The notes: generated by a model not told the origin, from the sequence alone. Positions 1,703 through 49,558 are shown, counted from the first letter of the stretch. The stretch is 64,000 nt of DNA from Rhodospirillaceae bacterium (GCA_002728255.1 PBWV01000044.1:17927-81926); one strand, 5' to 3'. Numbers and translations: made by a program.

Positions 1703-1707
1703 TAGGG

Positions 1708-4447: not shown

Positions 4448-5329
4448 ATGACTATAGAGATAAAGCGCTTACATCCTCATTTTTTTGCCGAAGTTTCGGG
4501 GGTCGATTTAACAAAAAAATTAAGCGCTCAAATACTTGCAAGGATCCAAGAGGCCTTTGCTCAGCATGCTGTCCTCCTTTTCCGAAATCAGGCGTTCGAC
4601 GATTTATCACAAATTTCTTTTACGTCGCAGATAGGACCATTGGAACGAAATATAGGTGGGAAATTTGGAAATGGACATCCCGAAATATCCAAACTTTCTA
4701 ATGTTGGTTCGGATGGGAAGACGTTTGAGAAAGGAAGTGATGGGGCAGAATTTCTGAATGGAAACAGCACCTGGCATACCGATAGCTCATTTAAGGTTGT
4801 TCCAGCGCTGGGTTCAGCTTTATCCGCGAGGGCGGTACCTCCAAAGGGCGGCGAAACACAATATTGCGACATGAGAGCGGCCTACGACGTACTAGACGAA
4901 GAAACGAAAACTCTTATAGAAAAATCAACTGCGGTACACAGCTACCTGTATTCAAGCGGGAAGATAAGTGCTAACATTCTAACCGACCAAGAAAAAGAAG
5001 AACTTCCCCCCGTACAACACCCCATGGTACGGGTACATCCACAAACAACACGGAGAGCTATTTATGCCGGAAGGCACGCATCACACATCCTTGGTATGCC
5101 GGAGGAAGAAGGGCGATCTCTAATCGCTAAACTTAATGACTTCGCCACGCAGCCTGAATTTGTTCATACTCATAAATGGCAGGTGAATGACTTGGTAATG
5201 TGGGATAATCGTATGGTCATGCATAGGGGGCGCCCGTATGAAGCAAGGTATAAACGTGTAATGCACAGGACAACGATTGCTGGCGACTCCCCTGGTAACC
5301 CCTGGGTTGTGCAGGATAAAGTCGCCTAA
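4448..5329 (+). CDS. TauD/TfdA family Fe(II)/2-oxoglutarate-dependent dioxygenase (taurine/sulfonate dioxygenase-like).
   Basis: 293 aa with a WHTDSSF iron-binding motif and overall TauD-like length and layout. Confidence 0.7.
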   Translation: MTIEIKRLHPHFFAEVSGVDLTKKLSAQILARIQEAFAQHAVLLFRNQAFDDLSQISFTSQIGPLERNIGGKFGNGHPEISKLSNVGSDGKTFEKGSDGAEFLNGNSTWHTDSSFKVVPALGSALSARAVPPKGGETQYCDMRAAYDVLDEETKTLIEKSTAVHSYLYSSGKISANILTDQEKEELPPVQHPMVRVHPQTTRRAIYAGRHASHILGMPEEEGRSLIAKLNDFATQPEFVHTHKWQVNDLVMWDNRMVMHRGRPYEARYKRVMHRTTIAGDSPGNPWVVQDKVA

Positions 5330-5441
5330 ATACGAAAGCCAGAGTGGAGAAGGAACATTCCAACACTCTACTTACACTGGAGGCATACATAAAGGCTGGA
5401 CTATTTAATAAGATATTTTAATAACTGAACATGGTGCCATA

Positions 5442-6497
5442 ATGAACAACCCACAAGGCCATACTTCCCTAGCGCCTGCAGAGACCCGGCAAGCCTATAG
5501 AACTATCTCTCGGCGTCGAGCCATAACCCTATTTGGATGTGCAGCAGGCCTACCGACCCTGGGGTTAGGCACGGCTTTTGCTGGCTCTAAAGACATATCT
5601 CTGTACAAGTGGGAAGGTTCTGCGTTGGGCGCACAGGCACAACTGACCCTAGCTCATCACAACCCCGAAGAAGCCAAGAACATAATATCTTCCGTAATCC
5701 AGGAAATCGAACGCCTCGAACAAATTTTCAGCCTACATCGACCCGAGAGCGAACTAACACTCTTGAACAGCCAGGGGTATATTTCAAATCCATCTGCTGA
5801 TCTCACAAAACTCTGTAAAACTTCCATTGGATTTGGATACGACACAGATGGCGCTTTTGATATTACGGTTCAACCTCTTTGGAAGGTCTTTACAAAGCAC
5901 TTCCAAGAAAATTCTGCAGCTTCTGAAGGTCCCCCGAGCCAGGAAATACTTAAGGCTCTAAATTACGTTGACTATCGTGCCGTAGATGTTTCAAGCCAAA
6001 AGATAAATTTTGGTCGCCCGGGGATGGAAGTAACGTTAAATGGTATAGCACAAGGATACATTACCGACACCGTTACCGAATTACTGCAGCAGAGCGGGAT
6101 CACTCAAGTATTGGTCGAACTAGGAGAGACAAGGACATTGGGAGAACACCCGGAAGGACGCCCCTGGAGAATTGGCCTAGCTGACCCCAAAGACCGCACT
6201 AAGACTACTGAAACCGTCGAATTGGAAAATAAAGCCGTCGCGACATCATCTGGCTTCGGAACAAAATTTAACCGTGATGGAAGCTTTCATCATCTATTTG
6301 ATCCCCGCACAGGCCTGCCTAGGAATCACAATATCTCTGTTTCAGTGGTTTCTGATAGCGCAGCGGTAGCTGACGCCATGTCGACGGCGCTCTTTATAGC
6401 CACACCTGATAATGCTCGCCCAATAGTTGAACGGGTGGGAGGCATGACGGCTGTAATTAGCGCAACGGATGGCACTAAACGAAGAATAGTCAGTTAA
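5442..6497 (+). CDS. apbE: FAD:protein FMN transferase (ApbE family), Tat-exported.
   Basis: Twin-arginine signal (SRRRAITLFGCAAGLPTLG) followed by the ApbE signature region LNGIAQGYITD. Confidence 0.8.
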   Translation: MNNPQGHTSLAPAETRQAYRTISRRRAITLFGCAAGLPTLGLGTAFAGSKDISLYKWEGSALGAQAQLTLAHHNPEEAKNIISSVIQEIERLEQIFSLHRPESELTLLNSQGYISNPSADLTKLCKTSIGFGYDTDGAFDITVQPLWKVFTKHFQENSAASEGPPSQEILKALNYVDYRAVDVSSQKINFGRPGMEVTLNGIAQGYITDTVTELLQQSGITQVLVELGETRTLGEHPEGRPWRIGLADPKDRTKTTETVELENKAVATSSGFGTKFNRDGSFHHLFDPRTGLPRNHNISVSVVSDSAAVADAMSTALFIATPDNARPIVERVGGMTAVISATDGTKRRIVS

Positions 6498-8441: not shown

Positions 8442-9359
8442 ATGGGAATTAAAAAACTGCTTTCGATATTTTTATTTTTTATGGCTTTTGCTAGCCACGT
8501 TCATCCTGCAGAAAATTATTCTCTTGTAGATGTTCAATGGCTGAAGCCATTAGTCTGTGAGCCCAACGTGACAATTCTCGATGTACGAAGGTCAGCAGAA
8601 GACTATAAAGCCGGCCACATCCCCTGTGCAGTTCACACCAATTATTACAAGGATGGATGGAGAACACGAAAAGACGGGGTGCCACACATGATGCCCACAG
8701 TACCGCATCTCGAGGCTCTCATGGGAAAATTGGGGATCACCAATGACAGTCACGTGGTCATTTATGGATCAGGAACGGGTGAATTTGATATCGCCGAGAC
8801 TACTAGTATTTACCTAACTCTAAAATATCTAGGCCATGATAACGTTTCAATCCTCGATGGCGGTTTACCAGTTTGGATGGATGAATGGTCAACTGACTTT
8901 GATGTAGGGGTAACTGAAATCAGCCCCTCCGAATATACAGCCAAACCAAATTCCCATCTGCTGATATCCTCGGAGCAAGTCCAGAATTCCATAGATGGGA
9001 AAACTCCCCTTGTTGATATCCGTAGCAACGATATGTTTCTCGGAATTAATAAGGCATGGATGTTAAAAAGGCCAGGAACCATACCAGGTGCCTTAAACCT
9101 TCCCATGAGCTGGTTCACCATTAATTCCAGCCTATTGTTCCGCGACACCAAAAAATTAAAAAAATTGTTTTCTGCAGCCAATGTGCCGTTAACTGGCAAA
9201 ACTATCTTCTTCTGCAATGCTGGCCTCGAAAGTTCCGTAGGTTGGTTTGTAGCACATGAGCTTCTCAATAACACAGAGGCAGTGTTGTATGATGGTTCAC
9301 TCGCTGAATGGACTAAAAACCATGAACTTCCCATGACTAGGCATATTCAGCTTGACTGA
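8442..9359 (+). CDS. Periplasmic tandem-rhodanese sulfurtransferase (thiosulfate / 3-mercaptopyruvate sulfurtransferase-like).
   Basis: N-terminal signal peptide; two rhodanese modules; catalytic CNAGLES loop. Confidence 0.7.
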   Translation: MGIKKLLSIFLFFMAFASHVHPAENYSLVDVQWLKPLVCEPNVTILDVRRSAEDYKAGHIPCAVHTNYYKDGWRTRKDGVPHMMPTVPHLEALMGKLGITNDSHVVIYGSGTGEFDIAETTSIYLTLKYLGHDNVSILDGGLPVWMDEWSTDFDVGVTEISPSEYTAKPNSHLLISSEQVQNSIDGKTPLVDIRSNDMFLGINKAWMLKRPGTIPGALNLPMSWFTINSSLLFRDTKKLKKLFSAANVPLTGKTIFFCNAGLESSVGWFVAHELLNNTEAVLYDGSLAEWTKNHELPMTRHIQLD

Positions 9360-35040: not shown

Positions 35041-35116
<76 letters not shown>

Positions 35117-35177
35117 CAACTCCGATCAAGCCTTATAATCAATGGTTAAAGCGCTGTCTAGGTAGACATAACCAACA

Positions 35178-38509: not shown

Positions 38510-39301
38510 TTAAAACTGATATAATAAAGAGATTATAATCTTTTGATCAAAATCTCTATCCCTAGTAATAGGTGCACTCATCCCAATTCCCACCTCCAAA
38601 GGAACTCCTTTTATTGGTGAACCAATGAACCCCCAAGAGGCGTTGATCACACTTTCGTTATCATCGCCAATGACAACCAGCTCACCATCTAACTCAAAAA
38701 TACCCCTCAATCGAGGTTGAAGCCAATAAGCCATTGCAAGGTTATATTCCAAACCAAGATCCTTTTCCGCCTCTGTTAGGGCATCTTCATTGAAGGGAAA
38801 CTCTAATCCGAAAAACCCAATGTATTCGAAGGGCCCATCGATAAAGCCACCATCTAAAAATGGTTTTACAATTATTTCATTGTTACTACCTATATCCTTC
38901 CCATCATCCCCAGTCGGCAACTCCAACTCTAGCCCTCCACCTAACAACGAAGTAGTACTTACCCCTCTAGCGAGCTTCAAAGCAATTTCGGCTACGTCCA
39001 GGTTATCTTGAGAACCACTTCCATCTGATGGATCACGGAACTTGTAAGGTATGTCAACTTCAATGCTAACCCCAGGCATGATAGCAAACTCGCCCTCTGG
39101 ATTAATTTCCAGCTCATCAGCACTGCTTGTCTCTGTTACTATGTATTCGAACCGAAACTCGGTATCTGGTGTCGGCGACTCGGCAACTAGTGGATGCGCA
39201 AGATCCGGGATGCCATCATCATCTGCCCAGCCAACCTTACTAGCTAAAGCGCACATAGCCACTACACATAGCAATAGAACCGGGATAACTCTATCTGCCA
39301 T
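38510..39301 (-). CDS. Putative outer-membrane beta-barrel protein (hypothetical), the last gene of the sorAB operon.
   Basis: Signal peptide, alternating amphipathic strands, C-terminal ...LLYQF (terminal Phe). Confidence 0.45.
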   Translation of the reverse strand: MADRVIPVLLLCVVAMCALASKVGWADDDGIPDLAHPLVAESPTPDTEFRFEYIVTETSSADELEINPEGEFAIMPGVSIEVDIPYKFRDPSDGSGSQDNLDVAEIALKLARGVSTTSLLGGGLELELPTGDDGKDIGSNNEIIVKPFLDGGFIDGPFEYIGFFGLEFPFNEDALTEAEKDLGLEYNLAMAYWLQPRLRGIFELDGELVVIGDDNESVINASWGFIGSPIKGVPLEVGIGMSAPITRDRDFDQKIIISLLYQF

Positions 39302-39403
39302 GCTTTTACTACCGCTTATGTTCTTAAATATTGTACCGATACTGTCCAACATGCCCTTCTCCCTCAATACACTTTAACCACGCACTTGGTAGCTCCCACA
39401 ACA

Positions 39404-39958
39404 TCACTTCCGGTCTTCTTCTGGCCAAAACATCACAAAGCCGTCACGGTTCGGCATTCTTACCATAGGCAAAGTAACAGCATTCATTACATCTACCTCG
39501 CCAATAATACCATTCTGAGCCAAAATATAAGCTGTAACCGCATATACCTCCGAATTACTCAGAGAAGCCGGTGCGTCATAGGGCATAGCTCTCCGTATAT
39601 AGTCAAAAATAGTCGTCGCGTAAGGCCAGTAACTCCCCACAGTTTTCAACGGCTCATCGGTGGCAAGAGATCCAATTCCTCCAACAAGAGGGTCAGCCAA
39701 TCCCAAACCCCCAGCCCCTCTTTGCCCATGGCAGTGCAGGCATCGATCCGTGAAAACTGTGAACCCCAACCGAGAATCGCCTTCACCATTGGGTAAACCG
39801 CTCCCCTCTGGACCAATGCTTATATCCCAGCCAGAAAGCGCCCCAGGTTCAACTGAAACCCCCAGTTTGGGCCCCTGTAATTCTCCCCCTAATGCAAAAC
39901 CTGAGAATGCAAACCCTGCAAAGAATACAAGCACCCGAAACGTCTTATATAAAAACAT
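39404..39958 (-). CDS. sorB: Mono-heme c-type cytochrome, the SorB-like subunit of sulfite:cytochrome c oxidoreductase.
   Basis: Signal peptide; single CLHCHG heme-binding site. Overlaps the 3' end of sorA by 14 nt. Confidence 0.7.
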   Translation of the reverse strand: MFLYKTFRVLVFFAGFAFSGFALGGELQGPKLGVSVEPGALSGWDISIGPEGSGLPNGEGDSRLGFTVFTDRCLHCHGQRGAGGLGLADPLVGGIGSLATDEPLKTVGSYWPYATTIFDYIRRAMPYDAPASLSNSEVYAVTAYILAQNGIIGEVDVMNAVTLPMVRMPNRDGFVMFWPEEDRK

Positions 39959-41324
39959 TAGTTACCTCTCCGTTTCGAGCAATGCTCCAGGTTTGAATAG
40001 CATTACAATGATAAAGCTGGCCTTCCGCATACTGTGCAGACCATACATCTCTTCGAAGTTGCGTATTACCTGCCTCATCAGTAGCACGGCTTTGCAATAA
40101 TGTTGGCAAGCCATCCCACTTCCATGGAAGGCGAAAACGCGTCAGCGCCATTGATAAAGGCTCCCCATCCAGGGCCGCAACAGCCCAAGTTGCCCCTCCA
40201 TCCGCAGAAACTTCAACTTTTACTATTTTACCGCTTCCAGACCATGCTAAGCCGGATATCTCGTAAAACCCTGGACCATCCATTACTAGACCACCCGCTG
40301 GCCTAGTAATGGTAGACTTAACGCCCATCGTGTAAGTGAACTGACGAGCCACACCATCAGGCATTAAATCAGAATATTTAGATGTCTCATCCTTAGTGTA
40401 GGTGGGGCCGCTGGTCACCTTGATTCGCCTTAGCCATTTGACCGACATATTTCCCTCAAAACCAGGAAGCAACAACCTCATTGGATAGCCCTGTTCAGGC
40501 CTCAACATTTCTCCATTTTGGTAAATCGCTATTATGGCATCATCCATTGCCTTTCGCAGAGGAATGCTGCGGCTCATCCCAGCTGAATCTGCTCCCTCCG
40601 CCAATATCCATTTCCCCTCTGGAAGTAGTCCCGCCTCATCCAATAAAAGGTTTAAGGGAATGCCAGTCCACTCAGCACCCGACACGAGTCCGTGAATCAT
40701 ACCTACCGAAACTTGGGTGGCCTCGGGAAACAAATTACTGTTAAAGAAACTATTTCCCGCGCACTCTATAAAATAGTTTCTTGAAATCATTGGATAGCGA
40801 CTAAGGCTAGCCATCGAAAACTTGAGCGAACGCTGAACCAGCCCGTGAATAAGAAATTCGTGCTCATCTGGGTTAATCGTGGGGCGCCCATTATGGCTAC
40901 GCTCAAAATGTAACCCATTGGGGGTAATAGTACCTTCTAGTGACTGCAACGGTGTCATAGCCACCCCGGCACCTGGCGCAAGGTCTCCGTAGGGCTGCAA
41001 GATTTTTCGCTGGACAGAACTTTCAGCCCCTGCCGGCTTCCCATAGCCCCTGAAACTCGCGCCGGGGATCTTCATAGAATCCGGTAAAAAGGCTCCGATA
41101 GATTGGGCGCCCGATTGTGAATCAAATACGGGAGCCTCATAATTTATAGCCTCCTCCGTCGAAGTATCATCCGCCCTTCCCGCCTTCGCAAAAACAGCAA
41201 TTGATCCTGCTAACAACCCACCTTGCACAAATAAACGACGATCCAACAAGCCATTCTTAGCTGCCAAATCAGCCTCTAACTCAGTTCTCATCAGATCTTT
41301 GCCTGCCTTACCTTTACTCTTCAT
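39945..41324 (-). CDS. sorA: Sulfite dehydrogenase molybdopterin subunit (sulfite oxidase family), Tat-exported.
   Basis: Tat motif RRLFVQGGLLAG; Mo-ligand cysteine in YFIECAGNS; C-terminal dimerisation domain. Confidence 0.8.
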   Translation of the reverse strand: MKSKGKAGKDLMRTELEADLAAKNGLLDRRLFVQGGLLAGSIAVFAKAGRADDTSTEEAINYEAPVFDSQSGAQSIGAFLPDSMKIPGASFRGYGKPAGAESSVQRKILQPYGDLAPGAGVAMTPLQSLEGTITPNGLHFERSHNGRPTINPDEHEFLIHGLVQRSLKFSMASLSRYPMISRNYFIECAGNSFFNSNLFPEATQVSVGMIHGLVSGAEWTGIPLNLLLDEAGLLPEGKWILAEGADSAGMSRSIPLRKAMDDAIIAIYQNGEMLRPEQGYPMRLLLPGFEGNMSVKWLRRIKVTSGPTYTKDETSKYSDLMPDGVARQFTYTMGVKSTITRPAGGLVMDGPGFYEISGLAWSGSGKIVKVEVSADGGATWAVAALDGEPLSMALTRFRLPWKWDGLPTLLQSRATDEAGNTQLRRDVWSAQYAEGQLYHCNAIQTWSIARNGEVTNVFI

Positions 41325-41381
41325 TCAGAGCCCCCTATGACTAATATATGCAATAACCCGTAATACACTCTTGTTCGACGC

Positions 41382-43472
41382 CTACGATACCACCAGCTTC
41401 TCCCGCCTTTCACGCCTCTGTATTAATGGTGGACAGACCATGTCATCGTAATAAGCAGTTTGGCACTTTAGACATTGATAACACTCGCTTATATTTATCT
41501 CTCCATCTAGCTGAATAGCCTGAACAGGACATAAGTCTCTACAAATATTGCAACTACTTCCACATTCAGGGCGCCGTTTTAACCATTCCAGCACCCGAAT
41601 CCTTCCGGCTATTGCCAACCCTGCTCCCAGCGGGCAGAGATACCTACAAAACGGCCTCTCGACAAATAAGCTAATGCCCAGGAGCAATAGGGCAAACAAG
41701 GTGTACGGCCAAGAGCGGATAAAGTGGGTCATTATGACCGTATTGAACGGCTCCACCTCTATGGCTTTCGACAGGTAAACCGGACTAAAAAATGTCAAAG
41801 ACACTAGGCCTATAAGTACAAAATATTTCAGTGCCCATAGTCGCCTATTTACCACAGAAGAAATATTCAACTGCTTGATACTTAACCAACGCGACAATTG
41901 ACTCACGACATCTTGCAGAGCACCAAAAGGGCACAACCAACCACAAAAAACACCTCTGCCAAGGAGCAACGTAACTATCAGAGTAAAGCCCATAATTATC
42001 ACAATTAGCGGGTCAAGGAGCAGAGATTCTAGGGACCACTGCAGTTTCGGAGCTCGCATTAATGATAGAAGATGCATTACCGACAACTGAGCCCCTGTAT
42101 ACCACCCCACCCAAATTAGAGTGAAAACCATGAACCCATTTTTAATAATTCTTAACGTTTTTGGTGTTCGTACTATTGTCCCCTGGAGCACCAGAATTGT
42201 GCATAGAATTAAGAAAGCGAGGAACATAATTGCAAGTGCAGAACTCGCCTCAAGCCAAACACTTACCCAAAGAGGCGTTACTTTTTCTCTCTTTCTTTGT
42301 TCCACAGCAACCTGATGTGGAATAGGTTCTATTACTATTTCCTGTGGCGGAGAATAAGGTAGGCTCCACGTATTACCATAACTCTCATCACCAATAGACT
42401 TTATTTGAATTGCCCAAGGGCGCGTCGGATCAAACTTTTCCTGGGATCCAATGGTCAACAACCAAGCACGCGATAAACCCAGGAATGGAACGTTTTCGAC
42501 TTCCCTCGTAGGCACCCCATTTAGGCTCTTAACCCAACCATTTTGCCTGAGACTAAGCTCAAATAACGCCTGAGTATCATCCTTAAGCGAGAGAGCTACC
42601 TCCTCGGGAAACAACGAGCCGCCTGCCCCAAGCCAAATTAGAGCTCCACTAGATTCGGGTTCTTCTATATCCAACCCTAAACTGAGATCATTTGCCAGAA
42701 GATTTTCCCTGATTAGCCTCGGTGAGGCGAGGGCAAGAAAAATTTGTTCTTTTGCAGTTGCAAATAATCCATTCACGCCATCAGAACCAACGTCCAGAGC
42801 GGTTGAAGAAAAAACAAAAGAGTCATCCAGAATCGCACTTCGTACCGCACCAATTGATAAAAGATCTTTCCAACTCAATTCCCTCTGACTGTGTAAATCA
42901 AGGCGACGACCTTCCCTTTCACCAGGACCATATAACTCCCTAGATACAGCCACAGCTCTCCCCGCCTCATAAACTGCCTCCAACATAATCAAGCTACTTC
43001 TCTTCGCTCCTTCAGCGTATACGGCAAGGTCTATGGGATTCGAATCTAAAACATCAAGCCCAGATAAAGCACTAACCATTTCCTCTAATGGAAGTCGTGA
43101 AGCTACACTGCCCACTAAAGGCTCTTGATGAGCAATGAGCGCCGCTCCAGTTATAATACCATTCATATCGACAGCGGAGATAATTTCGAAGGACTCACCG
43201 GCATAGCCTTCTGTCCCTAGCAAATCCCCAACAGAAAACGCGTACCCAACTATGGACAGGAAACCACTATTATTGACTTCCCCATAAACAGGCGCCGCAA
43301 CAATTCGACCAGACGGCCGGCCGGCAGTCTCGGCACCGGGGAATATACTCTGTAACAAGCTAATAGGAATACTCTCTATAAAATGCTTTGGCCCCATGTC
43401 TGCCCTCAAACGATTACCACAATCCACTAACGCAATGAGTATGGAAATCAGGAGAATCTTAACCATATTCAT
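41382..43472 (-). CDS. NosR/NirI-family membrane-bound flavo-iron-sulfur protein.
   Basis: Signal peptide, a periplasmic FMN-bind-like region, about 6 TM helices, CGWLCPFGALQD and FCRYLCPLGAG CX3CP motifs, and C-terminal ferredoxin-like Cys clusters. Confidence 0.7.
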   Translation of the reverse strand: MNMVKILLISILIALVDCGNRLRADMGPKHFIESIPISLLQSIFPGAETAGRPSGRIVAAPVYGEVNNSGFLSIVGYAFSVGDLLGTEGYAGESFEIISAVDMNGIITGAALIAHQEPLVGSVASRLPLEEMVSALSGLDVLDSNPIDLAVYAEGAKRSSLIMLEAVYEAGRAVAVSRELYGPGEREGRRLDLHSQRELSWKDLLSIGAVRSAILDDSFVFSSTALDVGSDGVNGLFATAKEQIFLALASPRLIRENLLANDLSLGLDIEEPESSGALIWLGAGGSLFPEEVALSLKDDTQALFELSLRQNGWVKSLNGVPTREVENVPFLGLSRAWLLTIGSQEKFDPTRPWAIQIKSIGDESYGNTWSLPYSPPQEIVIEPIPHQVAVEQRKREKVTPLWVSVWLEASSALAIMFLAFLILCTILVLQGTIVRTPKTLRIIKNGFMVFTLIWVGWYTGAQLSVMHLLSLMRAPKLQWSLESLLLDPLIVIIMGFTLIVTLLLGRGVFCGWLCPFGALQDVVSQLSRWLSIKQLNISSVVNRRLWALKYFVLIGLVSLTFFSPVYLSKAIEVEPFNTVIMTHFIRSWPYTLFALLLLGISLFVERPFCRYLCPLGAGLAIAGRIRVLEWLKRRPECGSSCNICRDLCPVQAIQLDGEINISECYQCLKCQTAYYDDMVCPPLIQRRERREKLVVS

Positions 43473-43512: not shown

Positions 43513-44574
43513 TTAAGGTATTATCTTGGCGGCACGGTATTGTTGAAAATAGTCTAACAACATAGCGCGTGTATCAACAACCTCAACGAATCCCGCTGCT
43601 GTCAATTTTGTGGTACTCGTTAACAAATCCCAATCCTGACCAAAAATAAAGTCCCCGAAAGACCACTGCGCCAATGTGTCAATACTGTTCGGCTTCAAGT
43701 TCTGGCTTTCCACAATATTTTTCCATATCAGTGCTTTATCATTCATCACTTTTGTTAGTGTTAAGCCTCTTGGAATACCCAACGGCAACTGAAAAAAATT
43801 AGCAATTTCTGGCCACAAATTAGCCCATCGAAAACAGTCCCCATTAGTTACATTAAACGCTTGGTTAGCACATTGGCCGTTTGTAGCTATCCAGATAATA
43901 GCTTTAGCTAAATGGGATGCGGAAACAGCCTCCGCAATAACATTATAGTTCTTATCAGAGCCAGGAAACTCTAGAGGGATACCCAATGCACGGCTTAGTT
44001 CTGCATAAACCGCAATCAAAGATACCGGGTTTCTAGACTGCTGAGGCGCAAAATCATAGACAAGACAAGGCCGTGATACTGACCATCGCCACTCTCCACT
44101 TCTGGATGCCAAGTAATCTTGCTGGTCATAATAAAAATTTGGCCCCATATGTCGTGGGTCTTCCTCCCGGGCTGGCGTTCTGTAAGGTCCCAGATGGCAT
44201 CCGTAATATTTAGCTCCATGAACAGCATGAATATGCTCAAGGGTCGGGCAAGATTTTTCAACTAGCCCCACAAGATTCTTGAGCATAGTAAGATTTTCTT
44301 CCACGGGTTCCACCATTCCTTCCCCGTGGTTAGCCCGTGCTGCGTAAAAGACATGAGTTATATCAGAGAGCCTAGACAAGACTAGTTTGCTAGATTCATA
44401 ATCTAACAAATCTGTCTCTATATAATGGACGTTCCGAGAAACTCTCGTTGCTCTTCGGCAGAGGCCAGTCACCTTAAAATCAGCCTGCCCAAGTTGTTCG
44501 ACTAGACGAAACCCCACCGTCCCCGTCGCCCCAGCCACTAATGCATGCCTCCTCACAATACTCTGCCTTTCCAT
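43513..44574 (-). CDS. NAD-dependent epimerase/dehydratase (extended SDR) family protein.
   Basis: LVAGATGTVGFRLVEQL Rossmann motif. The ORF runs to 44598 and overlaps the upstream gene. Confidence 0.6.
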   Translation of the reverse strand: MERQSIVRRHALVAGATGTVGFRLVEQLGQADFKVTGLCRRATRVSRNVHYIETDLLDYESSKLVLSRLSDITHVFYAARANHGEGMVEPVEENLTMLKNLVGLVEKSCPTLEHIHAVHGAKYYGCHLGPYRTPAREEDPRHMGPNFYYDQQDYLASRSGEWRWSVSRPCLVYDFAPQQSRNPVSLIAVYAELSRALGIPLEFPGSDKNYNVIAEAVSASHLAKAIIWIATNGQCANQAFNVTNGDCFRWANLWPEIANFFQLPLGIPRGLTLTKVMNDKALIWKNIVESQNLKPNSIDTLAQWSFGDFIFGQDWDLLTSTTKLTAAGFVEVVDTRAMLLDYFQQYRAAKIIP

Positions 44575-45386
44575 CCAAGATTGGCAAGCTTCTTCCAACT
44601 CTCAACAAGATCATGGTCCGGATTTGTTGATATGATCTCCATAACAGACAACCCCTCAAAAGAAATCTTCCCAAGAGCCTCGTGAACGGAAGCAAAATCT
44701 ACCTCGCCGGCTCCAACAGGGTCATGACGCCATTCGTGGCGGCCCGTATCAGATAGATGAATGAGGTCTACCGCACCCTCCAATTGCAGTAATTCTTTTG
44801 CTGGATTTTGTCCTGCATAATACCCATTAGCAACGTCATAAACTATTCCTACGTTTGGATGATTAATCTGACCTACTATATTTAACAGGTCCTTAGCTAA
44901 CGGCACCGTCGTAATAGGCACATTTTCAATCAGCACCTTTGTCCCAGATTTCTTTGCGTGCTCTGCAAGAATCAAAACCCCCTCGAGAAGCCATTCTAGC
45001 ATTAGTTTTTTTGGAGCAGGAAAGAGGGGGGACACCTTGCCTGGCACTAACACCACATATGGAACCGACCACAAACCTGCCAACTCAATCAACTCCTTAA
45101 AGCGCTGCTGCGTAAAATTCCTAGTGTCTGGGTTAGGGCTGGTGATATTATGGTCCATGATGGGCAAATTAAATGAGGTGACTCTTAGTTTCTCATCAGA
45201 GATTATGGCCGGCCTCCTATCACGCGACTCCCTGGGAATCTCTGATACCCAAATATGCGGAGAATTAAAAAGAAACTCAAAATTCTCAAATCCAATTTTT
45301 CTTAAATGTCTAGCGGCCTCAAATGCATGGTGACTATAAATATACGAATATGTATTTACAGAGATTGTTAGCGAAGGAGAACTCAT
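44553..45386 (-). CDS. Sugar phosphate isomerase/epimerase (xylose-isomerase-like TIM barrel).
   Basis: ISVNTYSY...FEAARHLRKIGFENFEF typical N-terminus of the AP-endonuclease-2/TIM family. Confidence 0.65.
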   Translation of the reverse strand: MSSPSLTISVNTYSYIYSHHAFEAARHLRKIGFENFEFLFNSPHIWVSEIPRESRDRRPAIISDEKLRVTSFNLPIMDHNITSPNPDTRNFTQQRFKELIELAGLWSVPYVVLVPGKVSPLFPAPKKLMLEWLLEGVLILAEHAKKSGTKVLIENVPITTVPLAKDLLNIVGQINHPNVGIVYDVANGYYAGQNPAKELLQLEGAVDLIHLSDTGRHEWRHDPVGAGEVDFASVHEALGKISFEGLSVMEIISTNPDHDLVESWKKLANLGWKGRVL

Positions 45387-45524
45387 TGTTTACTATTTTC
45401 TATGCATAACTGGTTGAAAATCATAAAATCAGTTGGCTTTCTAAAAGCTAACCACTACTACATATAGCATATGTAATAGATTGCTACTCAATACTATCCC
45501 TCTATTTGTACCCAGGAAAATGAT

Positions 45525-46715
45525 ATGTCCCCCAAATCAGCTAGCTTACTATCCGGAATCCGGGTGCTTGATTTTACGGCCTTTGTTGCTGGACCCTATT
45601 GCACAAGGCTCATGGCTGACCTAGGGGCAGATGTCGTAAAGGTGGAGCCTCCCCATGGCGACCTGCTCCGCCAAGTTGCACCCGTGCGGAACGGACATAG
45701 TACCTACTTTGGACAGTTAAATAGTGGGAAACGAAGCCTTTCTATAAATATTAAAAAGCCTACTGGAATCGCTGCAGTAATTCAGCTGGCTAATAAAGCC
45801 GATGTGATTGTCGAAAACTTTAAACCCGGAATAGTAAAGAAATTTGGGCTCGATTATGAAAAGCTCGCCACAAAGAAACCCAGCCTAGTATATTGCTCCA
45901 TATCAGGTTATGGACAAACGGGACCTGGGGCCCAAAGACCGGCTTTTGCACCCATTGTGCATGCATCCAGCGGGTTCGATATGGCCCAGGCCGAATACCA
46001 AAATGGTATGACTACCCCTGCTAGAGGACGCCCCGTGGCTGCAGACGTATTAGCTGCCGTGCACTCATTAGCGGCTATTAATGCCGCGCTGTTCAGGCGC
46101 GAGCGAACAGGGGAAGGTGAGTATATCGATGTGGCCCTGATGGACTGCATCCACAGCATCCTTCCCTATGAATTTCAAAAGGCCTATTTCCCTGAATCTG
46201 CTGAAAAAGTGCCTGTCTACGCGCCCATTGAGACTCTAGATGGTTATATTCTTATTGCCCCCGTAACGAACAAGAATTTCACCGGTCTAGCGAAGGCTAT
46301 AAACAAAGAAGAATGGTTGACTGACCCTAAATTTTCCGACTCTAAACAAAGATATTCAAATCTAGAGATTATATACGATTCGGTTGGAGAATGGGCGAAC
46401 AAACGAACATCAGCCCAATGTGAAGAGACCCTCAACCTTAGCGGCTGTCCATTTGGAATATACAAGACTATTGGTGAAGCTCTAAAGGACCCTCAATACA
46501 TTACCCGTAACAGTATTGCTGAGGTAGAAGATGCTGCTGGAAAATTCAAAGTCCCAAATTCACCTCTCCATCTTACGGTCGCAAAAGCTTCTCTTGGCAC
46601 AAGAGTGCCATACCTCGGAGAACACAATAAGGACGTATTATCTGACTGGCTTGATTTTGAACAAGATACCATCCAGGATTTGCAAAATGACGGAACTCTC
46701 CAATCAGCACCCTAA
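45525..46715 (+). CDS. Family III CoA-transferase (CaiB/BaiF).
   Basis: LSGIRVLDFTAFVAGPYCTRLMADLGADVVKVEPP. Confidence 0.85.
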   Translation: MSPKSASLLSGIRVLDFTAFVAGPYCTRLMADLGADVVKVEPPHGDLLRQVAPVRNGHSTYFGQLNSGKRSLSINIKKPTGIAAVIQLANKADVIVENFKPGIVKKFGLDYEKLATKKPSLVYCSISGYGQTGPGAQRPAFAPIVHASSGFDMAQAEYQNGMTTPARGRPVAADVLAAVHSLAAINAALFRRERTGEGEYIDVALMDCIHSILPYEFQKAYFPESAEKVPVYAPIETLDGYILIAPVTNKNFTGLAKAINKEEWLTDPKFSDSKQRYSNLEIIYDSVGEWANKRTSAQCEETLNLSGCPFGIYKTIGEALKDPQYITRNSIAEVEDAAGKFKVPNSPLHLTVAKASLGTRVPYLGEHNKDVLSDWLDFEQDTIQDLQNDGTLQSAP

Positions 46716-47935
46716 TGAGGATGAGCCTCAGAGTAATCACCAGGCGGGAAAATTTCTTCCTCAGATTCAATGCAGTCTTCAGCCAACGCCATATTCATTC
46801 CTGGTTGGTCTGTCAGGGAAAAGACCCCACTCTGCGGAACAAGTTTATTCTTTAGGAAATGCTGGTTGATTTGGTTCCACTTCAGTAAAAACTCTTGGTA
46901 CGGAGTATGAATTGGGGACTGTGCAAACGAGAACGGAAGAGTGACATGCGTTGATCCACCGTGTGGGATTACCATTAGATCATGAACAGAGGCATATGCA
47001 GCTATCTTTAGTGTCTCAGACAACCCTCCACACCAATAAATATCCGGTTGAATTATATCCAAGGCCTCCGCATCAATAAAACGCTTAAACCCCCACCTGG
47101 TGTATTCATGCTCGGCTCCCGATAAGGGAATAGAAATTTTATCCTTTATTCTTCGGTAACTTGAAATTCGATCAGGCATAACACATTCCTCAAGCCAAAA
47201 CGGACGATACTCAGCAATACGTTCCGCTAATGATAAAATATAGGGAACATCCATACTTTGCCAACAATCGAGCATAATCGCATCATGATCCCCTAGAGTT
47301 TCTCTGAGGGTCTTCACTAAAGTCACATTTTTATCTAATCCTTCGGGGCCACTCATAGGGCCATGGCGGAAAAACCATTTTTGCGCTGTGTACCCCGCCT
47401 GTTGGGTCTCTTTCGCTCTTTGCCTCACCAAGCCTTGATCTTCAACGTCGTAGCCTAACATACTGGCATATGCCGGCACCTCCTTCCTAGTGGGCCCGCC
47501 TATGAGCTTATGAACGGGCGCTCCAAAAAACAGACCCTTAAGATCCCAGAGAGCACAGTCAACCACACTTACCGCCCACATCGCCTCACCTTGTCTGCCA
47601 TGGACAAGGCTTCGGTGCATCTGATCCCAGAGTAACTCGCTTGCCAAAGGATCCTTGCCCAATAACAGCTCCCTCAATTGGGTCGCAATGATGTAGGCCA
47701 CCGCATCAGAAGTCGGACCAAAAACCCCGTTCAATCCCTCATCCGTCCCAATCTCCAAAAATACATTCGACAAGCGAAATTTCCCTGCTGAATCCTGGGT
47801 GCCTCCCCAGAACGGCATCGCATTTCGGTATTCAGGGTAAATATCAATTGGTCGGGCCAAGCGCGATTCCCAAAATGTTCCATCCCAATCAAAAGATCCT
47901 CGCACCTTTCTTAAGGTTACTCTATCAATTTTCAT
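46712..47935 (-). CDS. Enolase-superfamily dehydratase, L-rhamnonate dehydratase-like.
   Basis: MLDCWQSMDV ... WLEECVMP ... IQPDIYWCGGLSE ... IPHGGS blocks collinear with RhamD/YfaW. Confidence 0.7.
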   Translation of the reverse strand: MKIDRVTLRKVRGSFDWDGTFWESRLARPIDIYPEYRNAMPFWGGTQDSAGKFRLSNVFLEIGTDEGLNGVFGPTSDAVAYIIATQLRELLLGKDPLASELLWDQMHRSLVHGRQGEAMWAVSVVDCALWDLKGLFFGAPVHKLIGGPTRKEVPAYASMLGYDVEDQGLVRQRAKETQQAGYTAQKWFFRHGPMSGPEGLDKNVTLVKTLRETLGDHDAIMLDCWQSMDVPYILSLAERIAEYRPFWLEECVMPDRISSYRRIKDKISIPLSGAEHEYTRWGFKRFIDAEALDIIQPDIYWCGGLSETLKIAAYASVHDLMVIPHGGSTHVTLPFSFAQSPIHTPYQEFLLKWNQINQHFLKNKLVPQSGVFSLTDQPGMNMALAEDCIESEEEIFPPGDYSEAHPH

Positions 47936-49375: not shown

Positions 49376-49472
49376 TCGTCGGCTAGGCGCCCTCGCCCAC
49401 CACTAGAGACCCAGTTCAGAACGTCAGCCAGTTTCTGCTTAGTTTACGTCTACAACCAAAAATAGGAAGGCT

Positions 49473-49558
49473 GGTGCGGTCGAGAAGACTCGAACTTCCA
49501 CGGGATCTCTCCCACAGCGACCTCAACGCTGCGCGTCTACCAGTTCCGCCACGACCGC
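49473..49558 (-). tRNA. tRNA-Leu (anticodon GAG), long variable arm, CCA encoded.
   Basis: Reverse complement: GCGGTCGTGGCGGAACTGGTAGACGCGCAGCGTTGAGGTCGCTG...CGACCGCACCA. Anticodon loop UUGAGGU. Confidence 0.85.

What the first reader, a model, noticed from the sequence alone, without database searches (positions are those of the whole stretch)
38510..43472. NosR/NirI-type membrane flavo-FeS protein heads a sorAB sulfite dehydrogenase operon, with no nosZ
Four same-strand genes run with gaps of 57 nt or less or with overlaps: a NosR/NirI-family protein (FMN-bind-like periplasmic domain, about 6 TM helices, CX3CP motifs, ferredoxin-like Cys clusters), then SorA (Tat-exported Mo-enzyme, ECAGN Mo-cysteine), then SorB (mono-heme cytochrome c, 14-nt overlap with sorA), then a putative outer-membrane barrel. 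NosR is classically tied to N2O reductase maturation and electron delivery. Here it is genomically coupled to periplasmic sulfite oxidation, which suggests a membrane electron-transfer or maturation module serving a different periplasmic redox enzyme. The predicted FMN-attachment motif reads TGAA rather than the usual [ST]GA[TS], so the acceptor Thr may be absent.
Basis: partly seen in the sequence, partly recalled or inferred. Interest (0 to 1): 0.7.

Follow-up and report, generated by a model that had tools for sequence, protein, structure and literature searches.

The report
NosR-type membrane partner for SoxCD
A marine alphaproteobacterium links a flavin-less relative of the N2O-reductase helper NosR to a SoxCD-type periplasmic sulfur/sulfite-oxidising molybdenum enzyme, and gene fusions in other bacteria suggest that the two exchange electrons directly.

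Summary
The four minus-strand genes are real and tightly packed, and the 64-kb window has no nosZ, nosDFYL or soxXAYZB.

1. The Mo-enzyme and cytochrome pair is SoxCD-type, not SorAB. It scores 513 bits on TIGR04555 (cutoff 420) but only 111 on SorA (cutoff 600). Its best solved relatives are 2XTS chains A and B.
2. It lies at residues 151-160 (`VYAEGAKRSS`), where Lys replaces the acceptor Thr.

The 696-aa protein belongs to a small clade I call NosR-B, found only in uncultured marine Alphaproteobacteria.
- SoxC and SoxD follow it in 16 of 16 loci that extend far enough.
- In 13 loci a second paralog, NosR-A, with an intact `D-x-x-S-G-A-T` site, sits just upstream. The window lineage has lost it.
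- The linked SoxC proteins form their own clade (bootstrap 100/100).
- In two unrelated organisms, soxC is followed by a gene that fuses a SoxD domain directly to a NosR transmembrane/FeS module.

Best reading: this is a dedicated membrane redox partner of SoxCD. The direction of electron flow is unresolved. I rate it a new variant of the known modular NapH-like/NosR electron-transfer systems.

The parts
41382..43472 (-). NosR-B: a 696-aa NosR/NirI-family membrane FeS protein. It has a signal or anchor, a periplasmic head with an FMN_bind fold, a beta-rich middle domain, a NapH-like TM module and a cytoplasmic di-[4Fe-4S] domain.
   Evidence: NCBIfam NosR model: 421 bits, full length, below the cutoff of 1000; NapH models also match. 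Pfam Fer4_5 x2. The database's precomputed Pfam hits include PF27538 NosR. The AF2 model has pLDDT 69 and its best structural match is RnfG.
42993..43022 (-). Degenerate flavinylation site, residues 151-160 (VYAEGAKRSS). Lys156 occupies the position of the FMN-acceptor Thr, and the upstream Asp of the motif is lost in an 8-9-residue deletion.
   Evidence: Alignments. Classical NosR/NirI proteins and all NosR-A paralogs read D-x-[VI]-[SAR]-G-A-T here. All 11 NosR-B paralogs lack it. The motif definition comes from PMC12052999.
43119..43154 (-). It is a conserved FMN_bind-fold segment, not the attachment site.
   Evidence: It aligns with VTGAKLVAHQEP or VVGAKLVDHHEP of classical NosR/NirI. E117 and P118 are invariant.
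42897..42944 (-). Clade-specific motif SRELyGPGEREGRRLd (residues 177-192), directly after the head domain.
   Evidence: It is invariant or nearly so in NosR-B proteins and absent from NosR-A and classical NosR. It was used as the clade-specific search pattern.
42303..42329 (-). Clade-specific motif EPIPHQVAV (residues 382-390), just before the PLWVSVW/TM1 boundary.
   Evidence: E, P, H and VAV are invariant in the 8-member clade alignment A2.
41631..41945 (-). NapH-like membrane module carrying the two CX3CP motifs (C510/C514 and C609/C613).
   Evidence: These are invariant across 30 family members.
41433..41564 (-). Cytoplasmic C-terminal ferredoxin-like domain with 8 invariant Cys (637, 641, 644, 648, 664, 667, 670, 680), enough for two [4Fe-4S] clusters.
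   Evidence: The AF2 confidence is low here, as expected when cofactors are not modelled.
39945..41324 (-). SoxC-type molybdopterin dehydrogenase, 459 aa. It has a Tat signal (DRRLFVQ, residues 28-34), the Mo-Cys C188 in ECAGN, and a Mo-co dimerisation domain.
   Evidence: TIGR04555: 513 bits, cutoff 420. SorA 111 of 600 and SorT 105 of 570. PDB 2xts_A: 340 bits. It belongs to the NosR-linked SoxC clade, bootstrap 100/100.
39404..39958 (-). SoxD-type mono-haem cytochrome c, 184 aa (CLHCH at residues 73-77). It overlaps soxC by 14 nt.
   Evidence: PDB 2xts_B: 122 bits, E 2e-34. Pfam Cytochrom_C. Motif.
38510..39352 (-). Outer-membrane 12-stranded beta-barrel channel, 280 aa from ATG 39352 (the ORF extends to TTG 39367). 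No Pfam family. C-terminus ...LLYQF.
   Evidence: AF2 model pLDDT 83. Foldseek matches FapF, the COG4313 channel 4rl8, NanC and KdgM with probability 1.0 and TM 0.6-0.75. It follows SoxD in the window, L001, L007 and L011. Distant members sit elsewhere.
43513..45386 (-). Upstream same-strand neighbours: an AP_endonuc_2 TIM-barrel protein (44553-45386) and a PRISE-like SDR (43513-44598), 40 nt from NosR-B. They may be co-transcribed.
   Evidence: Pfam. The same pair precedes NosR-B in L001 and L007 and precedes NosR-A in L008 and L009. This marks the exact place where NosR-A was lost.

Best explanation
The 696-aa protein is the flavin-less 'B' paralog of a NosR/NapH-type membrane iron-sulfur module. 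This module has been recruited to a SoxCD-type Mo-haem dehydrogenase that is exported to the periplasm by the Tat pathway, instead of to N2O reductase.

Shown:
- The architecture of the protein and the loss of its flavinylation site.
- The invariable order NosR-B, then SoxC, then SoxD.
- Co-divergence of SoxC with NosR-B.
- An ancestral partner paralog, NosR-A, that keeps the flavin site and has been deleted in this lineage.
- Natural fusions in which a SoxD haem domain takes the place of the periplasmic head of a NosR-B-like TM/FeS module.

Inferred:
- NosR-B docks SoxD through its cofactor-less head and exchanges electrons between the SoxD haem and the membrane module.
- The most likely direction takes electrons from periplasmic sulfite or sulfane oxidation into the quinone pool, or to the cytoplasmic [4Fe-4S] clusters. 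That would make the system a membrane-coupled SoxCD:quinone oxidoreductase, rather than one that depends on a soluble cytochrome c.
- The outer-membrane barrel supplies or removes a small solute.
- The likely physiological substrate is sulfite released from organosulfonates.
For: - Family and architecture.
- SoxCD identity.
- Linkage: NosR-B is followed by SoxC and SoxD in every locus that extends far enough. That is 16 of 16: the window, L001, L002, L003, L007-L014, L023, L024, L026 and L028.
- Contrast with the wider family: at about 37% identity the relatives sit beside nirS, nor, apbE and nosL.
- The clade is tiny and specific.
- The SoxC proteins of these loci form one clade, bootstrap 100/100. 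That clade excludes stand-alone SoxCD pairs, including a second pair in the same genome as L002.
- Fusions: P0192 in L020 reads SoxD domain, then NosR-B-like TM/FeS, then NosR-A-like with VDGVRGAT, directly after a soxC gene. P0313 in L021 reads SoxD domain, then NosR TM/FeS, also directly after soxC. Both junctions fall at the conserved pre-TM1 motif.
- All redox Cys residues are invariant in NosR-B. The protein is therefore not a decayed copy.
- Precedent: flavinylated NapH-like modules pair modularly with reductases and with the oxidase ExaA (PMC8238504).
- Possible sulfite source: TauD genes lie in the window and near SoxCD in L002 and L015.
Against: - There is no experimental data for any member, and all carriers are uncultured.
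- The direction of electron flow is not determined. Transfer from a c-type haem to FMN, FeS or quinone may be thermodynamically uphill. This point rests on my own knowledge of typical potentials and was not tested.
- Stand-alone SoxCD pairs evidently work without any NosR-like partner.
- How electrons would cross a NapH-type module that has no haem is unknown even for NosR itself (PMC5928378).
- In the window lineage no flavin carrier is encoded in the cluster, so the route used in A+B organisms cannot be identical here.
- The substrate is not established. It could be free sulfite or SoxY-bound sulfane sulfur. Paracoccus SoxCD acts on SoxY-bound sulfur (my own knowledge).
- The module1/module2 junction of P0192 could be a read-through artefact of a long-read assembly. 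The SoxD/TM junction cannot be.
- The AF2 model of NosR-B is only moderate (pLDDT 69).
Confidence: 0.5

Rival explanations
1. Electron flow runs the other way, as classical NosR is thought to work for NosZ. The NosR-type module draws electrons from quinol or from cytoplasmic donors and delivers them to SoxD and SoxC. This would either keep the Mo centre in an active redox state (reductive activation or repair) or allow this SoxC clade to act as a reductase, by analogy with MsrP-MsrQ.
For: [quoted passage not shown]
- NapH acts as a quinol dehydrogenase (PMC5928378).
- FMN or FeS to a c-type haem is the thermodynamically easy direction (my own knowledge).
- The fusions and the linkage fit this direction equally well.
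- The NosR-linked SoxC clade has a few specific substitutions, including R147 next to the conserved R142-x-H144 loop.
Against: - The catalytic core of SoxC is conserved with ordinary SoxC proteins. Only 6 positions are clade-specific, against about 110 that are near-invariant.
- The protein passes the SoxC equivalog model.
- No SoxC-family reductase is known (my own knowledge).
- The window lineage lacks the FMN that classical NosR needs for its donor role.
Confidence: 0.27
2. NosR-B is mainly a regulator or sensor. Like NosR for nosZ and NirI for nirS, it would be needed for transcription of the adjacent soxCD genes, sensing redox state through its FeS clusters, without carrying catalytic electron flux.
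For: - NosR affects nosZ transcription in Paracoccus, and the family is historically annotated as 'transcriptional regulator' (PMC7660919; the NCBIfam name).
- The loss of the flavin site could mean that catalytic electron transfer has been lost.
Against: - The protein has no DNA-binding domain.
- All FeS and CX3CP Cys residues are under strict conservation.
- Covalent fusion of the SoxD haem domain to the TM/FeS module in two lineages is hard to explain for a pure regulator.
Confidence: 0.1
3. One reading: a SorAB sulfite:cytochrome c oxidoreductase operon headed by a NosR protein whose flavin acceptor is missing at the TGAA motif.
For: The gene order, the Tat signal, the ECAGN motif, the mono-haem cytochrome and the absence of nosZ in the window are all correct.
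Against: - The SorA and SorT models fail (111 and 105 bits against cutoffs of 600 and 570), and the SoxC model passes.
- 2XTS SoxC and SoxD are by far the best solved relatives (340 against 74 bits for SorA; 122 bits for SoxD).
- The TGAA is not the flavinylation position.
Confidence: 0.03
4. The adjacency is fortuitous or a lineage-specific accident of synteny, with no functional link between the NosR-like gene and soxCD.
For: The closest loci (L001, L007) are broadly syntenic with the window, so they alone would not prove selection.
Against: - The linkage persists down to 42-47% NosR-B identity in different flanking contexts.
- SoxC co-diverges with NosR-B.
- Independent gene fusions exist.
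Confidence: 0.02

Closest known systems
NosR of Pseudomonas stutzeri and Paracoccus denitrificans (accessory protein of N2O reductase), and NirI of Paracoccus
   Same: It aligns over the full length (NCBIfam NosR positions 19-680 of 680). It has a periplasmic head with the FMN_bind (RnfG/NqrC) fold, a middle beta domain, a NapH-like TM module with two CX3CP motifs, and a cytoplasmic C-terminus with 8 Cys for two [4Fe-4S] clusters. It is encoded directly upstream of the periplasmic redox enzyme it presumably serves.
   Different: - Identity is only 29-37%, and the score is far below the equivalog cutoff.
- The flavinylation motif D-x-x-[ST]-G-A-[ST] is absent (Thr replaced by Lys, Asp deleted).
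- The partner is a SoxCD Mo-haem dehydrogenase, an oxidising enzyme, not the copper reductase NosZ or the cd1 nitrite reductase NirS.
- Ancestrally it works alongside a second, flavin-bearing paralog.
- It has clade-specific motifs (GPGEREGRRL, EPIPHxVAV).
'NapH-like' flavinylated extracytosolic electron-transfer systems (Meheust et al. 2021, eLife, PMC8238504), including the ExaA alcohol-oxidase-linked ones, and PceC/RdhC
   Same: It follows the same modular principle: a NapH-type membrane module with a periplasmic FMN_bind domain placed next to varying periplasmic oxidoreductases, among them an oxidase whose electrons would flow into the membrane.
   Different: - That paper's main text, and its supplements as held, do not mention SoxC, sulfite or Mo-enzyme partners.
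- The protein studied here would have escaped a flavinylation-centred survey because it has no flavin site.
- The pairing of a flavin-bearing and a flavin-less paralog, and the SoxD-haem fusions, are not described there.
SoxCD sulfane dehydrogenase of Paracoccus pantotrophus (PDB 2XTS)
   Same: Both subunits are clear homologues (340 and 122 bits). The Mo-Cys, Tat export, dimerisation domain and overlapping soxC-soxD genes are all shared. The protein passes TIGR04555.
   Different: - There is no soxXAYZB in the window or in any related locus.
- SoxD is the short mono-haem form.
- The SoxC belongs to a separate clade that is always linked to NosR-B.
- Whether it uses SoxY-bound sulfur or free sulfite is unknown.
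SorAB (Starkeya novella) and SorT sulfite dehydrogenases; SoeABC
   Same: SorAB and SorT share the SUOX fold, a periplasmic location and, probably, sulfite as substrate. SoeABC is the known way of coupling sulfite oxidation to the quinone pool through a membrane subunit.
   Different: The SorA and SorT equivalog models fail. SoeABC is a cytoplasm-facing enzyme of the DMSO-reductase family with an NrfD-type anchor, unrelated in sequence.
NapGH quinol dehydrogenase, and MsrPQ
   Same: NapH shares the TM/CX3CP/di-[4Fe-4S] module (65 bits on TIGR02163). MsrPQ is the precedent for a SUOX-fold periplasmic Mo-enzyme served by a dedicated membrane redox partner.
   Different: NapH has no periplasmic head and works with NapG. 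MsrQ is a haem-b protein unrelated to NosR, and MsrP is a reductase that lacks the dimerisation domain.

Membership tests
NosR (NCBIfam NF046105 equivalog; accessory protein of N2O reductase) | Score above the curated equivalog cutoff (1000 bits) | tested here: not met
   421.5 bits, although the alignment is full-length.
NosR (NCBIfam NF046105 equivalog; accessory protein of N2O reductase) | Covalently flavinylated Thr in a periplasmic D-x-x-[ST]-G-A-[ST] motif | tested here: not met
   The aligned site reads VYAEGAKRSS. Thr is replaced by Lys and the Asp is deleted. Motif definition from PMC12052999. No Pfam FMN_bind hit.
NosR (NCBIfam NF046105 equivalog; accessory protein of N2O reductase) | Genomic association with nosZ and nosDFYL | tested here: not met
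   None in the 64-kb window or in any of the related NosR-B loci. The rest of the genome could not be searched.
NosR/NirI/NapH-like superfamily (Pfam Fer4_5 PF12801 and PF27538 NosR) | Membrane module with two CX3CP motifs, plus a C-terminal domain of two [4Fe-4S] Cys motifs | tested here: met
   C510/C514 and C609/C613, plus 8 invariant Cys at 637-680. Fer4_5 68.8 bits with two stretches. Precomputed PF27538 hit on the identical protein P0001.
NosR/NirI/NapH-like superfamily (Pfam Fer4_5 PF12801 and PF27538 NosR) | Periplasmic N-terminal domain with the FMN_bind (RnfG/NqrC) fold | tested here: met
   The Foldseek top hits are RnfG chains (probability 1.0, E 3e-3, TM relative to target 0.46) on a model of moderate quality. 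This concerns the fold only, not the cofactor.
SoxC (TIGR04555 sulfite_DH_soxC equivalog) | Score above the curated cutoff; Oxidored_molyb and Mo-co_dimer domains; conserved Mo-Cys | tested here: met
   513.1 bits against 420. PF00174 and PF03404. C188 is conserved in at least 98% of 130 homologues. 2xts_A 340 bits.
SoxC (TIGR04555 sulfite_DH_soxC equivalog) | Partner SoxD cytochrome c encoded immediately downstream | tested here: met
   14-nt overlap. 2xts_B 122 bits, E 2e-34. Single CLHCH motif.
Complete Sox multienzyme system (SoxXA, SoxYZ, SoxB, SoxCD) | soxXAYZB in the same cluster, giving SoxCD its SoxY-bound substrate | tested here: not met
   Absent from the window and from every related locus examined. 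Presence elsewhere in the genome cannot be tested with these tools.
SorA/SorB sulfite:cytochrome c oxidoreductase (NF052245), and SorT (NF052247) | Score above the curated cutoffs (600 and 570 bits) | tested here: not met
   111 and 104.8 bits. SorA structures 2blf and 2c9x give only about 74 bits.
YedY/MsrP | Best match to MsrP models; no Mo-co dimerisation domain; MsrQ partner | tested here: not met
   No MsrP family among the NCBIfam hits at E<=0.01. The dimerisation domain is present (56 bits).
Outer-membrane beta-barrel channel (FapF / COG4313 / KdgM-NanC-like 12-stranded barrels) | Signal peptide, closed antiparallel barrel, C-terminal aromatic residue | tested here: met
   Model pLDDT 83 with 14 DSSP strand segments. 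Foldseek probability 1.0 and TM 0.6-0.75 to 5o68, 4rl8, 2wjq and 4pr7. Ends in ...YQF. There is no sequence-family membership, since Pfam and NCBIfam give no hit.

The most novel reading that the evidence does not exclude
NosR-A and NosR-B form an asymmetric heteromeric transmembrane conduit, with one flavin-bearing head and one SoxD-docking head. This conduit would capture the very low-potential electrons of periplasmic sulfite or sulfane oxidation and carry them across the membrane to the cytoplasmic [4Fe-4S] clusters, and from there to quinone, ferredoxin or NAD(P)+. That would be a new energy-conserving route for sulfur oxidation in pelagic heterotrophs, and the first NosR-type module shown to run 'inwards'. 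The window lineage would represent a streamlined version that works without the flavin subunit.
Probability: 0.15. Interest if true: 0.8.

Novelty: new variant of a known kind. Interest (0 to 1): 0.58.

Why it matters
NosR is one of the least understood components of denitrification. It is still unclear how a haem-less NapH-type module exchanges electrons with a periplasmic enzyme.

This clade offers a natural dissection of that problem. The periplasmic head has lost its flavin, a separate paralog keeps it, and in other organisms the head is simply replaced by the partner enzyme's own cytochrome domain. That gives testable constructs: the SoxD::NosR fusions, and A+B operons against B-only operons. 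These could show where electrons enter the membrane module.

There is also an ecological side. The system sits in abundant uncultured marine Alphaproteobacteria (Tara Oceans, MarineAlpha9) next to organosulfonate-type genes. It may therefore affect how much energy pelagic heterotrophs recover from the sulfite released by taurine or sulfonate degradation.

Finally, it is an annotation warning. 'NosR' hits in metagenomes are not evidence of N2O-reduction potential, and NCBI labels this protein only 'hypothetical protein'.

Tried and rejected
- A PDB sequence search with the 696-aa protein found nothing at E<=0.01, so no solved NosR relative was detectable by sequence.
- Literature searches for NosR with sulfite dehydrogenase or SoxC returned only genome reports that list the genes separately.
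- A search that included 'NirI' was swamped by near-infrared-imaging papers and was wasted.
- The eLife 2021 supplements, as held, contain no PF00174, PF03404, K17225 or K05301. The files may be truncated.
- The mSystems 2024 flavinylation paper does not discuss NapH-like, Mo-enzyme or sulfite systems.
- The soxCD/taurine literature search gave no statement on stand-alone SoxCD.
- The promoter and terminator scan found no more sites than shuffled controls, so it says nothing about operon boundaries.
- P0022 (Azospirillum) could not be located in the contig index.
- Wunsch and Zumft 2005 (PMC1064061) is not held. Its content is cited only second-hand, through PMC7660919 and PMC5928378.
- A crude regex count of flavinylation motifs across all family representatives was too strict to be meaningful, and I do not use it.
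- I considered and rejected SorAB, YedY/MsrP, chance adjacency, and the idea that NosR-B is a decaying pseudogene. Against the last: all redox Cys are invariant and the ORF is intact in every locus.

Full report
**Observation**

The region holds four minus-strand ORFs.
- 43472..41382 (696 aa).
- 41324..39945 (459 aa).
- 39958..39404 (184 aa).
- 39367..38510 (285 aa from a TTG start). An ATG at 39352 preceded by GAGGGAG is the more plausible start. It gives 280 aa, the length called in the public record.

The spacings are a 57-nt gap, a 14-nt overlap and a 36-51-nt gap. A consensus promoter and terminator scan found no more sites than shuffled sequence, so it does not define the transcript.

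The window comes from a marine 'Rhodospirillaceae bacterium' MAG. The 696-aa protein is identical to MBT07449.1, which is annotated 'hypothetical protein'.

**What the proteins are: the 696-aa protein**

- It matches the NCBIfam NosR model over its whole length (positions 19-680 of 680, E 6e-126), but at 421 bits against a cutoff of 1000. It also matches NapH models over residues 491-671.
- Pfam finds only Fer4_5 and no FMN_bind.
- It has an N-terminal hydrophobic segment, about 5-6 TM helices, CX3CP motifs at C510/C514 and C609/C613, and eight C-terminal Cys. All of these are invariant across 30 family members.
- An AlphaFold2 model of moderate quality (pLDDT 69) has RnfG, the FMN_bind subunit of Rnf, as its best structural match in the PDB.

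The architecture is therefore NosR-like, including the fold of the periplasmic head.

**What the proteins are: the Mo-enzyme, the cytochrome and the fourth protein**

The 459-aa protein passes the SoxC equivalog model (TIGR04555, 513 bits, cutoff 420). It fails SorA (111 of 600) and SorT (105 of 570). Its best solved relative is SoxC of the Paracoccus SoxCD sulfane dehydrogenase (2xts_A, 340 bits), whereas SorA structures reach about 74 bits. It has a Tat motif (DRRLFVQ) and the Mo-Cys C188.

The 184-aa protein has one CLHCH motif and matches SoxD (2xts_B, 122 bits, E 2e-34).

The pair is therefore SoxCD-type, not SorAB.

The fourth protein has no family hit. It gives a confident model (pLDDT 83) as a 12-stranded outer-membrane barrel, resembling FapF, the COG4313 channel, NanC and KdgM. 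Distant members of its family lie in other contexts, so it is an accessory gene rather than part of the core.

**The flavin site**

ApbE flavinylates the last residue of D-x-x-[S/T]-G-A-[S/T] (PMC12052999). In alignments, classical NosR/NirI proteins carry this motif as VD.VSGAT[VI][ST].

In the window protein the aligned position is residues 151-160, VYAEGAKRSS. Lys replaces the acceptor Thr, and an 8-9-residue deletion removes the Asp.

It is not the attachment site.

**Context in the window**

A Pfam survey of all ORFs of at least 150 aa found no nosZ, nosDFYL or soxXAYZB in the 64 kb. It did find a TauD-family dioxygenase directly followed by an ApbE flavin transferase (4448-6497) and a rhodanese (8442-9359).

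**Comparative evidence**

Relatives of the 696-aa protein at 41% identity or more form a very small clade, which I call NosR-B.
- In a library of 1.84 billion representatives, only two other clusters (P0013 and P0192) score above the generic NosR/NirI level.
- Scans with clade-specific N-terminal motifs returned 8 loci in 185,579 species genomes, all uncultured marine Alphaproteobacteria or Rhodospirillaceae. A further 8 came from metagenome contigs, and several of those duplicate loci already held.
- At about 37% identity the relatives are classical NirI proteins beside nirS, nor, apbE and nosL.

In all 16 loci that extend far enough, NosR-B is followed by SoxC and then SoxD.

In 13 loci a second paralog, NosR-A, lies immediately upstream. 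It is about 32% identical to the window protein and 34-39% to its neighbouring NosR-B. Every complete NosR-A has an intact D-x-[VI]-S-G-A-T, and every NosR-B lacks it.

Five loci have NosR-B alone: the window, L001, L007, L023 and L026.

In L008 and L009 the same upstream genes as in the window (AP_endonuc_2, then a PRISE-like SDR) precede NosR-A. NosR-A was therefore excised cleanly in the window lineage, where only 40 nt now separate the PRISE-like gene from NosR-B. L026, a distant high-GC member, also lacks NosR-A.

In a neighbour-joining tree of 130 SoxC proteins, all NosR-linked SoxC fall in one clade (bootstrap 100/100). The NosR-A-less group around the window (the window, L001 and L007, with their database relatives) is a derived subclade (100/100). 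L023 and L026 were not included in that tree.

Stand-alone SoxCD pairs fall outside the NosR-linked clade. One of them is a second pair in the same 4.79-Mb genome as L002.

Only six SoxC positions are specific to the clade (E130, R147, G216, L423, R424, V427), against roughly 110 that are near-invariant. The catalytic core is therefore unchanged.

**Fusions**

P0192 (1162 aa; L020, on a 3.4-Mb circular contig of 69% GC) is a single uninterrupted ORF lying directly after a soxC gene that is 64% identical to the window SoxC. It is built as follows.
- Residues 26-172 are a SoxD domain (CLSCH; 53% identity to the window SoxD).
- That domain is joined at ...GFVDVW-GPPWKRVW... to a NosR TM/FeS module, whose best match is NosR-B at 40-43%.
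- A complete NosR-A-like module follows (45% identity to the L002 NosR-A, flavin motif VDGVRGAT).

P0313 (591 aa; L021, from an AT-rich organism) is a SoxD domain fused to a NosR TM/FeS module, again directly after a SoxC C-terminus.

In both proteins the haem domain takes the place of the periplasmic head, at the conserved P[LP]W..[VE]W motif that precedes TM1. The SoxD/TM junction therefore cannot be a read-through of two adjacent full-length genes. The second junction in P0192 could in principle be an assembly artefact.

**Interpretation**

The conserved order, the co-divergence of SoxC and the two independent fusions show that a NosR-type membrane module is a dedicated partner of this SoxCD clade.

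The flavin-less head of NosR-B occupies the position that SoxD itself occupies in the fusions. Together with the invariance of all redox Cys, this leads me to infer that NosR-B docks SoxD and exchanges electrons between its haem and the membrane/FeS module. Where NosR-A is present, it would add a periplasmic flavin.

This extends the principle published for flavinylated 'NapH-like' systems. Those are paired modularly with NosZ, PceA, NirS and the oxidase ExaA, and most of their partners are unknown (PMC8238504). That paper does not mention sulfite, SoxC or Mo-enzymes, and my literature searches found no description of a NosR-SoxCD system.

**What remains inferred**

- *Direction of electron flow.* I favour flow from SoxCD into the membrane, which would make the system a SoxCD:quinone oxidoreductase. 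My reasons are that SoxC is a conserved dehydrogenase and that the ExaA case is a precedent for an oxidase partner. The reverse flow, NosR-like reductive activation or a reductase role, is a serious rival. NosR and NapH are thought to work in that direction, and it is thermodynamically easier for a c-type haem (my own knowledge).
- *Substrate.* 'Sulfite dehydrogenase' is only the name of the model. Paracoccus SoxCD acts on SoxY-bound sulfane sulfur (my own knowledge), and no soxYZ gene is nearby. TauD genes in the window and within about 5 kb of SoxCD in L002 and L015 hint at sulfite from organosulfonates.
- *The window's NosR-A-less state.* I cannot tell whether a flavin-bearing partner is encoded elsewhere in the genome.

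**Verdict**

The finding is a new variant of a known kind of system. It is of moderate to high interest, because it offers natural constructs for working out how NosR-type modules connect to periplasmic enzymes, and because NosR-like hits of this kind do not indicate N2O reduction.

Noticed in passing
window 4448-6497 (+): A TauD/TfdA-family dioxygenase (293 aa) is followed, after a 112-nt gap, by an ApbE flavin transferase (351 aa). This is an unusual pairing. TauD releases sulfite from sulfonates, and ApbE flavinylates periplasmic proteins, yet the NosR-like protein in this window has no flavinylation site.
   Followed up: partly
window 8442-9359 (+): A two-domain rhodanese (sulfurtransferase, 305 aa) lies about 30 kb from the SoxCD cluster. 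It is another sulfur-metabolism gene in the window.
   Followed up: no
window 43513-47935; L001, L007, L008, L009: A block of MR_MLE enolase-superfamily protein, family III CoA-transferase, AP_endonuc_2 TIM barrel and PRISE-like SDR stays syntenic upstream of the NosR/SoxCD genes, even in loci with only about 46% NosR-B identity. It may be a catabolic pathway, possibly for a sulfonated or acidic sugar, that is functionally tied to the cluster.
   Followed up: partly
L020 9666-12773: Directly downstream of the SoxD::NosR::NosR fusion lie a PQQ-dependent dehydrogenase (571 aa), an SBP_bac_3 protein and a 145-aa cytochrome c. This is an ExaA/ExaB-like set, the other oxidase type reported next to NapH-like modules.
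   Followed up: no
L002 and L015 (the same 4.79-Mb contig, Ga0315336_1000001): One genome carries two SoxCD pairs, one with NosR-A and NosR-B and one without. Each has a TauD-family gene about 5 kb downstream. This is a natural paralog pair for comparing NosR-dependent and NosR-independent SoxCD.
   Followed up: partly
L026 717-2957: A high-GC member of the NosR-B clade (46% identity) also has no NosR-A immediately upstream. The flavin-less-only arrangement may therefore have arisen more than once.
   Followed up: partly
window, whole length: GC skew is negative in every 2-kb bin (-0.04 to -0.26), and most large ORFs are on the minus strand. This fits a window that lies entirely on one replichore.
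   Followed up: no
window 35042-35117 (-) and 49472-49558 (-): tRNA-Phe(GAA) and tRNA-Leu(GAG) genes flank the wider region, roughly 3.4 kb and 6 kb from the ends of the four-gene cluster. I saw no integrase or other sign of a mobile element between them.
   Followed up: no
L017 (P0108 context): A stand-alone SoxCD pair sits among conjugation and transposition genes (TraU, a resolvase/recombinase, a DDE transposase). SoxCD pairs can evidently be mobile.
   Followed up: no
window 209-3840 (-): Two large overlapping-end ORFs carry TPP_enzyme_C, POR and DUF6537 domains. Together they look like an indolepyruvate or 2-oxoacid:ferredoxin oxidoreductase split across two ORFs, which is a possible frameshift or a genuine two-subunit form.
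   Followed up: no
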